A DNA stretch of 64,000 nt from Pseudohongiellaceae bacterium (GCA_051008235.1 JBPCXV010000117.1:4197-68196); one strand, 5' to 3'. Shown: positions 19,628-22,841, counted from the stretch's first letter. The notes: generated from the letters alone by a model not told the origin. Numbers and translations are program-made.

Positions 19628-19948
19628 ATGATTTGCCCAAAATGCAAGCACGGCTTACCCGATAATTTCTTTTACAAGGCAAGAATAAGAAAAGTAGTCA
19701 ACTGCCCAAACTGTAGCACCCAACTCAGAGTGGATTTGAAAGAGTTCGGGCGAGTTATGTGGCTCCCGTTCGTTGTTGCCGCATTCTTCATCTTCATCAG
19801 CATACCCACTTTTTCTGCGGCGGATCTTCAGCAAAGTTATCGAACGGAAGCGATTGTGGTGGAAGTGGTGACTATTATTCTTATAAGCTTATGCTTATTT
19901 ACTTATATGCGCATGAAACATTCGTTTAAAGCCGTACAAGAAGATTAG
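19628..19948 (+). CDS. Zinc-ribbon/2-TM membrane protein, single module (type b)
   Basis: MICPKC-19 aa-CPNC, then LRVD, two hydrophobic helices and a basic tail MRMKHSFKAV. RBS GAGGAA upstream. Confidence 0.75.
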   Translation: MICPKCKHGLPDNFFYKARIRKVVNCPNCSTQLRVDLKEFGRVMWLPFVVAAFFIFISIPTFSAADLQQSYRTEAIVVEVVTIILISLCLFTYMRMKHSFKAVQED

Positions 19949-19978
19949 CACAAAGCATTGCAAGAGGAGGAACTAAAA

Positions 19979-20683
19979 ATGATTTGCCCGAAATGTAACC
20001 ACAAATTGTCCAAAGATTTCTTTACTGCCGCACAGAAAAGCGTGAACGAAGTGATTAACTGCCCAAGCTGTAATGTTGAACTTACTGCAGATATGAAAAA
20101 GTTCAAACGGGCTATGACGCTCTCTGTTGCGATTATCATAGCCATAACTACCCCCATCGTGATTTCCTACATTTTGCTAACCGACCCTGACATTGGCACC
20201 ATCACAATCCCTTACATTGATCAGATTTATGGTGGCAGAGCAATAGCATCAATTGTGTTGGGTTTGATATTGGGAACTATCGGGGGCGGGTGTCTAACTG
20301 TTTATACACGCTCCAGGCAAGCCTTCAACATTGTGCAGGAAAATCATTATAAAAACCTGAAATTTTCCCATGCGACTTGTCCGGAATGCAATCACGGATT
20401 GCCCCGTTATTTCGTCGGTATGGTAAAAATGAACGAAATAGTTAACTGCCCAGGCTGCAATATTCAACTCAGGGTGGATAAGGCAAAGCTCGGGCGAACC
20501 GCGCTGCTCTCCCTTCTGGTCGCCACGGCCATAAGCTCCCCCATGATATTCATTGCCTACAGACTGTCTCTTGATGACCGCTACCCGGGAGTAGCATTTC
20601 TGTTGGGTTCGTCAGTGCTGGCTCTTGTGTATATGAATATGTTTATGTATGTATGGCGCAAGTATGCGTTTAAAGCCGCATAG
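19979..20683 (+). CDS. Zinc-ribbon/TM protein, two fused modules (a-b)
   Basis: CPKC-21-CPSC plus 2 TM, then CPEC-19-CPGC plus 2 TM. The ATG at 19979 is preceded by GGAGGA (the ORF track starts at 19958). Confidence 0.75.
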   Translation: MICPKCNHKLSKDFFTAAQKSVNEVINCPSCNVELTADMKKFKRAMTLSVAIIIAITTPIVISYILLTDPDIGTITIPYIDQIYGGRAIASIVLGLILGTIGGGCLTVYTRSRQAFNIVQENHYKNLKFSHATCPECNHGLPRYFVGMVKMNEIVNCPGCNIQLRVDKAKLGRTALLSLLVATAISSPMIFIAYRLSLDDRYPGVAFLLGSSVLALVYMNMFMYVWRKYAFKAA

Positions 20684-20694
20684 AGGAATTCAAA

Positions 20695-21369
20695 ATGATT
20701 TGTCCAAAATGCAACCACAAGTTGCCCAAAGGTTTCTATACCACCGCACAAAAAAACGTGAACAGAGTGGCTAACTGCCCAAACTGTAATGTTAAACTCA
20801 CTACAGATGATCAAAAGTTCATGCGAACTTTGCTGTTCTCCGGTTTAATCTTTATCGTCCTGACTGTTCTCATCGCGGGCTATTACGGCGTGCTGATTGA
20901 TGCTATACGGCCCGATGGCAACAATTTACTAATATCGGTTGCGTTTGGTGTGATATTGGGAATCATTATGATTGTGTGTACGGATGTCTATATACGCTTC
21001 AGGCAAGCAGTTAAAATCGTAGAGGAAGATCATTATCAAAAATTGAGATTTTCCAATGTGACTTGTCCAAAATGCAACTGCGGATTGCCCCATAATTTCA
21101 TTAACACGGCAGAAAAGGGCGAAGCACTTAACTGCCCAAATTGCAGCGTTCAACTTGAGGTAGATATAGCAAAGGTCATGCGAGCCGCACTGTTCTCCTT
21201 TCTGGTAGCCTCGGTCATAAGTTCCCCCGCCATATTCTTTTGCTACAGGTTGGCTTTCAATGACTGCTACCGAATAGAAGCACTTATTCAGGGCGGGGGA
21301 GTACTGGGTCTTGTGCTGCTATATACGGCTATCCACACATGGAGCAAGTCTGCGTTTAAAGTCGCATAG
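20695..21369 (+). CDS. Zinc-ribbon/TM protein, two fused modules (a-b)
   Basis: CPKC...CPNC plus 2 TM, then CPKC...CPNC plus 2 TM. Paralogous to neighbouring ORFs. Confidence 0.75.
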   Translation: MICPKCNHKLPKGFYTTAQKNVNRVANCPNCNVKLTTDDQKFMRTLLFSGLIFIVLTVLIAGYYGVLIDAIRPDGNNLLISVAFGVILGIIMIVCTDVYIRFRQAVKIVEEDHYQKLRFSNVTCPKCNCGLPHNFINTAEKGEALNCPNCSVQLEVDIAKVMRAALFSFLVASVISSPAIFFCYRLAFNDCYRIEALIQGGGVLGLVLLYTAIHTWSKSAFKVA

Positions 21370-21422
21370 AAGAATTTTCGCCAAAAACTTGCAACCCGCC
21401 AATACTGAACGAGGAACTCAAC
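21370..21422 (+). promoter_or_regulatory. Truncated copy of the shared upstream element (spacer deleted)
   Basis: aagaattttcgccaaaaacTTGCAAcccgccAATACTgaacgaggaactcaac. It has the same ends as the elements at 22161, 22842 and 25381, but only 6 nt lie between the TTGCA and AATACT boxes. Confidence 0.5.
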
Positions 21423-22160
21423 ATGTTTTGCCCCAAATGCAATAACGAATTGCCCGATGGTTTTTTTGCCACAGTAAAAAATAATATAGCTAACTGCCCC
21501 AACTGTAGTGTTGAACTCACTGCAGATATGGAAAAGTTCAATCATGCCTCGCGACTTTCTCTCCTGATATACTTTCCCATAGTTTTCCTCGTCGTAATTT
21601 CTCACTCTTTGCTGACTGGCATTGGTATCACAATTCCTTACGTTGAGCAGATTTATGGTGGCGAGTTAATAGTATGGTTTATGCTGGGTTTGGGGCTGGC
21701 ATTTGGTGGGCATAAGTTTATGACTACTTATCTACGCTCTAAACAAACGGTTAAAATCGCAGAGGGAGAATTAAAATCCCGCCACACTGGTAGCGCATCA
21801 GTAGGCAAACCGACCATTGCCATGAAACTGTTCAAGGAAGTCAATATACTTTGCCCAAAATGTGGCCGCAGATTGCCCATGGAAGAGTTCTACAAGACGA
21901 ATACGGATGACATAGTTAACTGCCCACATTGCGGTGTTAAAATCAGAATGAATATGGCAAAGTTCAAGCGCAACACGCTGTTTAGTACTCTGTTCGGCAT
22001 GTCTGTAGGTATCCCCGCCTTACTCATTTGCGCGGGGTTGGTTACTGAGCACGGCCTTCTGATGGAAGCGATTGTGCTGGGCTCTTTAACGTTGGGGTCT
22101 TCGTGCCTGTTTACATTGTCCTATGTGGTTTATAGGGCTGAGTATGAAATCGCAGAATAA
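21423..22160 (+). CDS. Zinc-ribbon/TM protein, two fused modules (a-b)
   Basis: CPKC-18-CPNC plus 2 TM, a linker, then CPKC-19-CPHC plus 2 TM. Confidence 0.75.
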   Translation: MFCPKCNNELPDGFFATVKNNIANCPNCSVELTADMEKFNHASRLSLLIYFPIVFLVVISHSLLTGIGITIPYVEQIYGGELIVWFMLGLGLAFGGHKFMTTYLRSKQTVKIAEGELKSRHTGSASVGKPTIAMKLFKEVNILCPKCGRRLPMEEFYKTNTDDIVNCPHCGVKIRMNMAKFKRNTLFSTLFGMSVGIPALLICAGLVTEHGLLMEAIVLGSLTLGSSCLFTLSYVVYRAEYEIAE

Positions 22161-22258
22161 GAGTTTTCGTCAAAAACTTGCATATTCAAAAAACCCCGCC
22201 AATACTGATAATGCAACAACACATTAACCTTTAACTCAAACTCAAAAGGAGTGTAATC
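22161..22258 (+). promoter_or_regulatory. Shared upstream element A, with a candidate promoter, in front of peptide gene 1
   Basis: TTGCAT (22178-22183), 17 nt, then AATACT (22201-22206), followed by TGATAATGCAACA...CATTAAC and RBS AAGGAG. It is nearly identical to the element at 22842. Confidence 0.55.
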
Positions 22259-22414
22259 ATGAGAAATCTTAATTCAACAGAAATTCAAGCAGTTAACGGC
22301 GGTAGCGCCCTTCTTTTTAATACGCCTATAGGTGCCTATATGATTGGAGAGGCTATGCTGCAGCAGAGCTACTACGACCATTGGGAGGCCTGTCACAGGG
22401 ACCCACAGTCATAG
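22259..22414 (+). CDS. Small secreted-peptide precursor with a double-glycine-type leader (51 aa; not in the ORF track)
   Basis: Manual translation gives MRNLNSTEIQAVNGG / SALLFNTPIGAYMIGEAMLQQSYYDHWEACHRDPQS, then a stop. RBS AAGGAG lies 7 nt upstream. The leader has L-12, E-8, I-7, V-4 and GG-2/-1, as in class II bacteriocin/microcin leaders. Confidence 0.6.
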   Translation: MRNLNSTEIQAVNGGSALLFNTPIGAYMIGEAMLQQSYYDHWEACHRDPQS

Positions 22415-22529
22415 CACTCAACGCCAGCCGTAACTGGCAAATCGGCGGTCTGTCAGGCCGGGTGGTCATTGTGGCTACCCAAGCCTGACGGATTGCTCTA
22501 TTTCTATGAAACTGAACGAGGAGTTCAAT

Positions 22530-22841
22530 ATGCTTTGTCCAAAATGTAACTACGGGTTGCCCAATACTTTCTTTACCAAGGTGGCAATAGATGAAGTGGT
22601 TAACTGTCCAAAATGCAGTGTTCCACTCAGAGTGGATATGGGGAAGTTCAAGCGAGACATGCTGCTTACCCTTCTAATCGGCTCAATTACAGGCGGCCCC
22701 GCCATATTCTTTTGCTTGATATTGGGTTTGGATTATGGCCACCGAACAGAAGCGTTAATAGTTGGTGTGGCAGTGTTTGTTCTTATGGTTACAAATATTA
22801 TCACTTATCTGCGCTATAAATATTCGTTTAAACTCGCATAG
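22530..22841 (+). CDS. Zinc-ribbon/2-TM membrane protein, single module (type b)
   Basis: MLCPKC-19-CPKC, then LRVD, two TM helices and the tail LRYKYSFKLA. The ATG at 22530 follows GAGGAG. The alternative ORF-track start is 22506. Confidence 0.75.
   Translation: MLCPKCNYGLPNTFFTKVAIDEVVNCPKCSVPLRVDMGKFKRDMLLTLLIGSITGGPAIFFCLILGLDYGHRTEALIVGVAVFVLMVTNIITYLRYKYSFKLA

What the first reader, a model, noticed from the sequence alone, without database searches (positions are those of the whole stretch)
19628..22841. Tandem array of eight zinc-ribbon/2-TM modules in five ORFs, ordered b, a-b, a-b, a-b, b
Five consecutive ORFs encode eight copies of one ~100-120-aa module. Each module has a CPxC-(18 to 21 aa)-CPxC zinc ribbon (e.g. 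MICPKCNHKLPKGFYTTAQKNVNRVANCPNC), a basic stretch, two hydrophobic helices and a conserved basic tail (R/K..aFKvA). Two subtypes are readable by eye. In type a the ribbon is followed by ELTAD or KLTTD, with IPY(I/V)(D/E)QIYGG between the helices in two of its three copies. In type b the ribbon is followed by LRVD, LEVD or IRMN, with SSP.IF..YRL in two copies and R.EA(I/L)(I/V) in three of five. The singles at both ends are type b, and the three ~230-aa ORFs are a-b fusions. The linker before module 4b (atgaaactgttcaaggaagtcaatATActttgccc, from 21822) matches the RBS/start region of the stand-alone last module (atgaaactgaacgaggagttcaatATGctttgtcc, from 22506). The fusions therefore arose by loss of start/stop signals between once-separate genes. 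The array is AT-richer than its flanks. Copies of the upstream element used by the double-glycine peptide genes follow three of its ORFs (21370, 22161, 22842), and peptide gene 1 sits inside the array. The architecture recalls small CxxC-20-CxxC membrane proteins of unknown function. Working hypothesis: these are immunity, receptor-decoy or sensor proteins for the neighbouring secreted peptides.
Basis: partly seen in the sequence, partly recalled or inferred. Interest (0 to 1): 0.8.

Follow-up and report, generated by a model that had tools for sequence, protein, structure and literature searches.

The report
Zinc-ribbon membrane proteins beside microcin-like peptides
A marine bacterium carries a 4-kb inserted island with eight copies of a small zinc-binding membrane protein placed among three secreted-peptide genes; these copies are most likely a previously unrecognised kind of self-protection (immunity) protein against bacteriocin-like toxins.

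Summary
Five + strand ORFs (19628-22841) encode eight homologous modules. Each has CPxC-(18 to 21)-CPxC, a basic stretch, two hydrophobic helices and a conserved tail. The order is b, a-b, a-b, a-b, b. All 28 module pairs are blastp-significant.

The array is a low-GC insertion between cysQ and a DUF885 gene in a Pseudohongiellaceae genome. Four related Pseudohongiella-like genomes have an empty site there.

The family is almost private: among 1.84 billion representative proteins only the five window proteins score strongly. The closest weak relatives lie in three other metagenomic loci. All of them also sit beside double-glycine-leader peptides homologous to the window's Gly-rich and Pro-rich peptides. 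More distant relatives of TIGR04104 type do not.

Best explanation (confidence 0.6): these are inner-membrane immunity proteins for class II microcin-like peptides, with extra orphan copies and fused pairs. The zinc ribbon is predicted to be cytoplasmic.

All TIGR04104 hits are below threshold. A weak profile match to the LetA/PqiA zinc-ribbon module gives a structural analogy for the fusions.

No C39 exporter is present in the window, and nothing has been tested experimentally. I rate this a new variant of a known kind.

The parts
19628..19948 (+). O1: single module (type b body with an a-like tail), 106 aa
   Evidence: ORF. CPKC at residue 3 and CPNC at residue 26, plus two hydrophobic helices.
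19979..20683 (+). O2: a-b fusion, 234 aa. Module 2a is 19979-20371 and module 2b is 20372-20683. An upstream TTG at 19958 is an alternative start.
   Evidence: O2 is 51% identical to O3 over its full length.
20695..21369 (+). O3: a-b fusion, 224 aa. Module 3a is 20695-21057 and module 3b is 21058-21369.
   Evidence: The exact protein is found on two public assemblies.
21370..21408 (+). Truncated copy of the peptide-gene promoter element, joined directly to a module-type RBS region
   Evidence: It lacks the TATTCAAAAAA spacer and everything after AATACTGA.
21423..22160 (+). O4: a-b fusion, 245 aa. Module 4a plus a long linker is 21423-21845 and module 4b is 21846-22160.
21822..21857 (+). Fossil RBS and start region inside the O4 linker (ATGAAACTG..AAGGAAGTCAATATA)
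   Evidence: Aligns with the regions before O5 and before O4 (repeat family D4).
22160..22216 (+). Promoter-like element upstream of pep1 (TTGCAT-17-AATACT)
22259..22414 (+). pep1: 51-aa double-glycine-leader peptide (MRNLNSTEIQAVNGG, then the core)
   Evidence: Fits the published motif M-R-x-[IL]-x9-G-[GAS].
22444..22497 (+). Long stable hairpin between pep1 and O5
   Evidence: the folded 99-nt region 22412-22510 has dG -48.2 kcal/mol and z -5.9.
22530..22841 (+). O5: single module (type b), 103 aa. An alternative ATG lies at 22506.
   Evidence: AlphaFold2 model with pLDDT 80.
22842..22898 (+). Promoter-like element upstream of pep2
22936..23232 (+). pep2: 98-aa Gly-rich double-glycine-leader peptide
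   Evidence: It is 52% identical over 73 aa to a peptide in L005 (composition-adjusted alignment: 51% over 57 aa, E 6.6e-13).
23245..23331 (+). Long stable hairpin after pep2
   Evidence: dG -50.3 kcal/mol and z -8.1. The stem motif is shared with L005.
25380..25436 (+). Promoter-like element upstream of pep3
   Evidence: repeat family D8, 81% identity.
25475..25669 (+). pep3: 64-aa Pro-rich double-glycine-leader peptide. It lies on the far side of the DUF885 gene and has no adjacent module.
   Evidence: It is 53% identical over 64 aa to the L005 Pro-rich peptide in an uncorrected blastp; only the 16-residue leader remains with composition adjustment.

Best explanation
The eight modules are inner-membrane immunity proteins for the class II microcin-like peptides encoded with them.

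Each module is a helical hairpin. Its N-terminal Cys4 zinc ribbon and basic C-terminal tail face the cytoplasm. Only a short acidic loop reaches the periplasm.

Inferred mechanism: the variable transmembrane helices and loop recognise or block a specific mature peptide, or its inner-membrane target, when the peptide arrives from the periplasm. The conserved ribbon does a constant job, either stabilising the hairpin or pairing two hairpins into a four-helix unit. That pairing would explain why a and b modules occur as fused pairs.

The island grew by tandem duplication of cassettes of the form promoter, peptide, hairpin, module(s). Some peptide genes were later lost, leaving orphan immunity modules that could protect against peptides made by relatives.

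Shown here: the anatomy, the predicted topology, the insertion, the rarity of the family, and its co-occurrence with homologous peptides in four loci.

Inferred only: immunity itself, the toxicity of the peptides, zinc binding, and dimerisation.
For: - Context. Adjacency to GG-leader peptides recurs in four independent loci: the window; L003/L004 (peptide, then a 54-nt gap, then the module); L005 (at least eight modules, counting two fused pairs (the second truncated by the contig end), interleaved with three peptides); and L006 (peptide, module, peptide at the DUF885-TPR site). The peptides are homologous across these loci.
- Absence elsewhere. Syntenic Pseudohongiella loci have neither modules nor GG peptides.
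- Peptide identity. pep1-3 fit the published class II microcin signal motif. They are the only three six-frame hits to it in the 64-kb window.
- Immunity criteria. The modules are adjacent to the peptides, small, and carry TM helices, which are the criteria used for validated immunity proteins. Three validated microcins needed two immunity proteins each (PMC12219008; PMC10233263).
- Topology. The N-terminal region has 123 K/R against 47 D/E, and the loop has 6 K/R against 25 D/E.
- Conservation pattern. The ribbon is conserved (mean 46.5% identity) while the TM region is divergent (23.1%), as expected if specificity lies in the membrane part.
- Independent fusions. Modules are more similar within a locus than between loci, so the fusions in the window and in L005 arose separately.
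- Peptide loss. The truncated promoter before O4 looks like the scar of a deleted peptide gene.
Against: - There is no experimental evidence.
- No C39-peptidase ABC exporter or membrane fusion protein is present in the 64-kb window, although known systems keep them close (PMC10233263).
- pep2 and pep3 have no module downstream, and pep3 has none on either side.
- Modules outnumber peptides eight to three.
- No known bacteriocin immunity protein has a zinc ribbon, and three literature searches found none.
- More distant relatives of the module (P0026, P0021, P0027, P0022) sit in housekeeping contexts without GG peptides. The scaffold itself is therefore not tied to bacteriocins.
- The comparison rests on only three extra loci, two of them short contigs.
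Confidence: 0.6

Rival explanations
1. The modules are accessory or regulatory factors for the peptides rather than immunity proteins. The conserved cytoplasmic ribbon might bind the conserved leader of the precursors, acting as a membrane escort to the exporter. Alternatively it might sequester a regulator of the shared promoter element, as SdpI does for SdpR.
For: The ribbon and the peptide leaders are both conserved, while the TM parts and the peptide cores both vary. The peptide genes have their own conserved promoter element and are separated from the modules by strong hairpins, which suggests separate regulation.
Against: There is no recognisable output or DNA-binding domain. Eight diverged copies are hard to explain for an escort of one conserved leader. 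[quoted passage not shown]
Confidence: 0.12
2. The modules belong to a general-purpose family of small zinc-ribbon membrane proteins (like TIGR04104, or a minimal LetA-like module) whose role is unrelated to the peptides. Their adjacency would then reflect only co-carriage on the same mobile island.
For: TIGR04104 is the best family hit for most modules and for all distant relatives. Distant relatives are single-copy genes in housekeeping contexts. There is a weak profile match to both ZnR-TM junctions of LetA.
Against: Tight interleaving with homologous peptides recurs in four loci that share no other genes, and in L003 the gap is only 54 nt. Lineage-specific tandem expansion with a divergent membrane part is typical of conflict genes, not housekeeping genes. 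No MCE partner gene is nearby.
Confidence: 0.12
3. The modules are themselves harmful small membrane proteins, such as holin-like or toxin-like hairpins, or release factors for the peptides.
For: Two TM helices with a charged C-terminal tail resemble class II holins (my own knowledge, not tested here).
Against: There is no phage or lysis context. No PHROG hit goes beyond generic zinc ribbons, and there are no PADLOC hits. Eight intact copies without a visible antidote would be costly.
Confidence: 0.04

Closest known systems
Class II microcin loci and their immunity proteins (for example CvaC/Cvi of microcin V)
   Same: The peptides have 15-residue double-glycine leaders that fit M-R-x-[IL]-x9-G-[GAS] and share 9-10 of 15 residues with the MccV signal MRTLTLNELDSVSGG. 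One core is Gly-rich and hydrophobic. Small membrane proteins are encoded immediately beside the peptide genes. Some validated microcins need two immunity proteins.
   Different: No PCAT or MFP lies nearby. The candidate immunity proteins carry a cytoplasmic Cys4 zinc ribbon. They form a recognisable sequence family, whereas known immunity proteins share no conserved features (PMC10233263). They occur as an eight-module array with fusions. The host is a marine Pseudohongiellaceae bacterium, not an enterobacterium.
TIGR04104 (cxxc_20_cxxc) family of putative zinc finger proteins
   Same: Both have an N-terminal CxxC-about-20-CxxC motif followed by two hydrophobic helices, in about 100 aa. TIGR04104 is the top NCBIfam hit for most modules, with near full-length alignments.
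   Different: All scores are below the curated cutoff (at most 37.4 bits against 45), and O5 has no hit. The nearest near-threshold protein examined (P0026, 44.4 bits) is a single-copy gene with no GG peptide nearby. TIGR04104 has no assigned function.
LetA/PqiA 'LetA module' (cytoplasmic zinc ribbon plus TM domain; PDB 9n8w)
   Same: Both have a cytoplasmic CXXC-Xn-CXXC ribbon followed directly by TM helices. Both occur either as two adjacent single-module genes or as one fused two-module gene. In LetA the two ribbons dimerise. There is a weak profile similarity at the ribbon-TM1 junction (E 6e-5 and E 3e-5).
   Different: LetA modules have four TM helices and a periplasmic beta-sheet, a spacer of n = 11-18, and an MCE partner (LetB or PqiB). 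The window modules have two helices, n = 18-21, no MCE gene, and score 13.9 bits against a cutoff of 260 for the pqiA family model.
Orphan immunity gene arrays in bacteriocin, CDI and T6SS loci
   Same: There are more immunity-like genes than toxins. Both show tandem diverged paralogs, low GC, insertion at a variable site, and relics of lost toxin genes.
   Different: The comparison rests on my general knowledge of those systems. Here, orphan status is inferred only from gene order and from the truncated promoter before O4.

Membership tests
TIGR04104 cxxc_20_cxxc | Whole-protein score at or above NCBIfam's curated cutoff (45 bits) | tested here: not met
   O1 scores 20.6, O2 37.4, O3 28.9 and O4 29.4 bits; O5 has no hit. 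Ten of 16 single modules hit at E<0.01, best 3.4e-6.
TIGR04104 cxxc_20_cxxc | N-terminal CxxC, about 20 residues, then CxxC, followed by two hydrophobic helices in about 100 aa | tested here: met
   Spacing is 18-21 residues and each module has two hydrophobic segments. Alignments cover profile positions 2 to about 85-91 of 93.
Class II microcin system (five-part definition, PMC10233263) | [quoted passage not shown] | tested here: met
   pep1-3 fit Motif 1 of PMC12219008. They are the only three hits in the window.
Class II microcin system (five-part definition, PMC10233263) | [quoted passage not shown] | tested here: met
   O4 and O5 flank pep1, and O5 precedes pep2. Topology comes from the charge bias. 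pep3 has none adjacent.
Class II microcin system (five-part definition, PMC10233263) | C39-peptidase ABC transporter and membrane fusion protein encoded close by | tested here: not met
   ORFs of 400 aa or more in the window are accounted for by other families where they were scanned or had precomputed Pfam hits. The rest of the genome could not be searched.
Class II microcin system (five-part definition, PMC10233263) | Antibacterial activity of the peptide and protection by the neighbouring protein | not testable with these tools
   This needs secretion, self-inhibition and zone-of-inhibition assays.
LetA/PqiA family | Zinc ribbon plus a four-helix TM domain with a periplasmic beta-sheet, and a match to the pqiA family model | tested here: not met
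   Each module has two helices. TIGR00155 scores 13.9 bits against a cutoff of 260.
LetA/PqiA family | Operon partner with MCE domains (LetB or PqiB) | tested here: not met
   The genes around 19.6-25.7 kb are cysQ, DUF885 and a TPR gene, with no MCE gene.
LetA/PqiA family | Detectable homology of the ribbon-TM1 unit | tested here: inconclusive
   hmmsearch of the A3 profile against PDB sequences gives E 6.1e-5 to 9n8w_A, matching both junctions. hhalign against E. coli LetA gives probability 72.7% and E 3.2e-5 over 45 columns.
Known anti-phage defence or phage protein families | A match to a PADLOC or PHROG model beyond a generic zinc ribbon | tested here: not met

The most novel reading that the evidence does not exclude
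The modules define the first sequence-recognisable immunity family for class II microcin-like peptides. It would be a minimal two-helix relative of the LetA/PqiA zinc-ribbon membrane module. In this reading, a cytoplasmic ribbon-ribbon dimer clamps two hairpins (a plus b, fused or separate) into a four-helix unit whose variable membrane face neutralises a specific peptide. The CPxC-(18-21)-CPxC plus two-TM signature could then serve as a genomic beacon for finding microcin loci in marine Gammaproteobacteria. It would also give a first functional lead for the uncharacterised TIGR04104 superfamily.
Probability: 0.3. Interest if true: 0.7.

Novelty: new variant of a known kind. Interest (0 to 1): 0.55.

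Why it matters
Class II microcins were recently shown to be abundant well beyond E. coli. Their immunity proteins, however, still cannot be found by any conserved sequence feature (PMC10233263) and must be guessed from position and size.

A recognisable zinc-ribbon hairpin family that travels with double-glycine peptides would give an entry point for three things:
- finding such loci in environmental genomes;
- studying how immunity specificity evolves, through tandem duplication, pair fusion and orphan copies;
- asking what the uncharacterised TIGR04104-like proteins do.

The architectural parallel with LetA modules also suggests that the ribbon-plus-hairpin is an old membrane building block reused in different contexts.

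Tried and rejected
- Word-indexed homology searches with O3, the 16-module profile and pep2 found only the same few proteins.
- A scan with the single DUF885 protein found nothing. The two-sequence DUF885 alignment then gave seven Pseudohongiella-like loci, none with modules.
- A degenerate two-knuckle DNA pattern run against metagenome contigs found one unrelated soluble zinc-ribbon protein, L016.
- Pfam gave only generic zinc-ribbon hits.
- PADLOC gave nothing, and PHROGs gave only ribbon-level hits.
- Rfam found nothing in 19-26.2 kb.
- The AlphaFold2 model of the O3 fusion was poor (pLDDT 63, pTM 0.38) and was not used for fold search.
- The single-module model (pLDDT 80) had no PDB fold match better than E 2.4; the hits were generic helical hairpins.
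- A periplasmic redox role for CPxC was considered and rejected because of the charge bias and the ribbon-like strand pattern.
- The generic sigma-70 scan did not flag the conserved element, because its -35 hexamer TTGCAT matches only 3 of 6 consensus positions.
- A possible recombination site shared by the cysQ 3' end and the post-peptide hairpins was too weak to claim.
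Full report
**Observation**

The five + strand ORFs are present as described. They are O1 19628-19948, O2 19979-20683 (an upstream TTG lies at 19958), O3 20695-21369, O4 21423-22160, and O5 22530-22841 (an upstream ATG lies at 22506).

They contain sixteen CPxC motifs arranged in eight pairs, with 18-21 residues between the pairs. Each pair is followed by two strongly hydrophobic segments. The eight modules align over about 104 positions, with invariant C3, P4, C6, L10, N25, C26, P27 and C29. 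All 28 pairwise comparisons are significant by blastp, with E from 1e-11 to 2e-38.

The a/b split holds in the sense that each module's best partner is of its own type. Identities are a-a 36-53%, b-b 23-49% and a-b 25-36%. Type b is a loose group, and O1 carries an a-like C-terminal tail (repeat family D7).

The zinc-ribbon part is about twice as conserved as the membrane part, at 46.5% against 23.1% mean identity.

The 4a-4b linker retains a fossil translation start. The sequence ATGAAACTG-TTCAAGGAAGTCAATATA aligns with ATGAAACTG-AACGAGGAGTTCAATATG in front of O5. O2 and O3 are duplicates of an already fused a-b gene (51% identity over the full length), and their joint is different.

**Island and host**

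GC drops to 0.44 across 20-23 kb, against 0.53-0.59 in the flanks. The array lies between cysQ and a DUF885 gene.

One source names pep2 as a hypothetical protein of a Pseudohongiellaceae MAG. The same sequence occurs in an NCBI MAG and in a Logan assembly.

Seven related Pseudohongiella-like genomes were fetched through the DUF885 gene. None contains a module or a GG peptide. In four of them cysQ and DUF885 are only about 170-200 bp apart. The roughly 4-kb array is therefore an insertion at a variable site. One relative carries a different gene there.

**The peptides**

Three small ORFs fit the published class II microcin signal motif M-R-x-[IL]-x9-G-[GAS] (PMC12219008). They are pep1 22259-22414, pep2 22936-23232 and pep3 25475-25669. 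They are the only three six-frame hits to that motif in the 64-kb window. Their leaders share 9-10 of 15 residues with the MccV signal quoted in that paper.

Each is preceded by a conserved element that reads as TTGCAT-N16-17-AATACT. Each is followed by a very stable hairpin, with z from -5 to -8.

A truncated copy of the element sits directly before O4. It is joined at an ACTGA microhomology to a module-type ribosome-binding region. This looks like the scar of a deleted peptide gene. That last step is an inference.

**Rarity and relatives**

A profile of the eight modules was searched against 1.84 billion representative proteins. It found only the five window proteins strongly (E below 1e-37), plus 24 weak hits with E from 4e-8 to 1e-3. 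Word-indexed searches added nothing.

The best full-length weak hits come from three other loci, and every one is peptide-linked.
- L005 is a 5-kb metagenome contig. It has four single modules and a fused two-module gene (plus the start of another module at the contig end), interleaved with one Pro-rich and two Gly-rich GG peptides.
- L003 and L004 have a Gly-rich GG peptide followed 54 nt later by one module.
- L006 is a TARA contig with the same DUF885-TPR-M20 synteny as the window. It has peptide, module, peptide between DUF885 and the TPR gene.

The peptides are homologous across loci. pep2 is 52% identical to an L005 peptide (composition-adjusted E 6.6e-13). pep3 is 53% identical to the L005 Pro-rich peptide without composition correction.

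L005 also shares the promoter logic and the hairpin stem motif.

Modules are more similar within a locus than between loci. The expansions, and the fusions in the window and in L005, are therefore independent.

More distant hits are a different matter. They all have TIGR04104 as their best family but score below threshold. They sit in unrelated contexts without GG peptides:
- P0026 lies between a P-type ATPase and a sulfatase in a 3.8-Mb chromosome.
- P0021 lies before a DEAH helicase.
- P0027 lies two genes upstream of a cysteinyl-tRNA synthetase gene.
- P0022 lies among metabolic genes.

**Structure and topology**

Across 16 modules the N-terminal region has 123 K/R against 47 D/E. The inter-helix loop has 6 K/R against 25 D/E. 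The ribbon and tail are therefore predicted to be cytoplasmic and the loop periplasmic.

An AlphaFold2 model of O5 (pLDDT 80.2) shows short strands, helices 37-68 and 72-96, and a terminal strand at the conserved FKxA tail. The fusion model was too weak to use. Foldseek found no PDB match.

A sequence profile search of the PDB gave one hit, LetA/YebS (9n8w), at both of its ribbon-TM junctions, with E 6.1e-5. hhalign against E. coli LetA gave probability 72.7% and E 3.2e-5 over 45 columns.

LetA is built of two 'LetA modules'. Each is a cytoplasmic CXXC-Xn-CXXC ribbon plus a TM domain. They are encoded either fused or as two adjacent genes, and the two ribbons dimerise (PMC13017536).

The window modules fail the defining features of that family: they have two helices rather than four, no MCE partner, and 13.9 bits against a cutoff of 260. 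The parallel does, however, give a concrete model for the a-b fusions.

**Interpretation**

The best-supported reading is that these are immunity proteins for the co-encoded microcin-like peptides, with orphan copies. They meet the working criteria for microcin immunity proteins: they are adjacent, small, and lie in the inner membrane. Some validated microcins need two immunity proteins.

The pattern of a conserved ribbon and a variable membrane part fits a constant structural role plus variable specificity.

Several points weigh against this reading.
- No exporter is present in the window.
- pep3, and arguably pep2, lack a partner module.
- The ratio of modules to peptides is eight to three.
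- No zinc-ribbon immunity protein was found in the literature.
- The distant relatives are unlinked to peptides.

I put the immunity reading at 0.6. Alternatives are a regulatory or escort role, a general membrane scaffold that is merely co-carried, and a harmful membrane protein.

**Novelty**

The system type (a double-glycine peptide locus with membrane immunity genes) is known. The protein family, its zinc ribbon, its array-and-fusion organisation and its marine host are not described in the sources I could search. I rate it a new variant of a known kind, with moderate interest.

Noticed in passing
window 22444-22497, 23245-23331, 25718-25780; L005 3014-3075 and 4581-4642: Very stable long hairpins lie directly after each double-glycine peptide gene (folded regions: dG about -45 to -54 kcal/mol, z from -4 to -8). 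The stem motif AAUCGGC(A/G)G(U/C)CUG is shared between the window and an unrelated metagenome contig. It is not in Rfam and is not repeated elsewhere in the window. It may be a terminator or attenuator that sets the ratio of peptide to module.
   Followed up: partly
window 21370-21408: A truncated copy of the peptide-gene promoter element is fused at an ACTGA microhomology to a module-type ribosome-binding region. It looks like the scar of a peptide gene deleted between O3 and O4.
   Followed up: partly
window 32779-41122 (- strand): A type I restriction-modification operon (HsdM, HsdS, HsdR) has a DarT ADP-ribosyltransferase and a macro-domain (DarG-like) gene inserted between hsdS and hsdR. 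It lies in a lower-GC island next to apaG.
   Followed up: no
window 49802-54741: A Fic-domain protein (49802-51214) is followed by an 859-aa TIR plus AAA protein (52162-54741) in a 32-37% GC island. This is probably another defence island.
   Followed up: no
L006 4650-5808; L013 6177-7829: Both flanks of the DUF885 gene are variable cargo sites in this lineage. A TARA relative has peptide, module, peptide downstream of DUF885. Another Pseudohongiella genome has a 550-aa metalloprotease-like gene between cysQ and DUF885.
   Followed up: partly
window 25547-25591: pep3 contains a 12-nt tandem repeat (CCTTTCCCG...) that encodes the repeated FPxP motif of its Pro-rich core. The homologous L005 peptide has PYPGPN repeats instead.
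   Followed up: no
window 60160-61377: A 405-aa DUF3667 protein is encoded here. It is unrelated to the array by the searches done.
   Followed up: no
window 19395-19455 compared with 22412-22470 and 23230-23290: The 3' end of cysQ weakly resembles the 5' arm of the post-peptide hairpins (AACTGGCAAA...GTCTGG). This could mark the insertion or recombination site, or it could be chance.
   Followed up: partly
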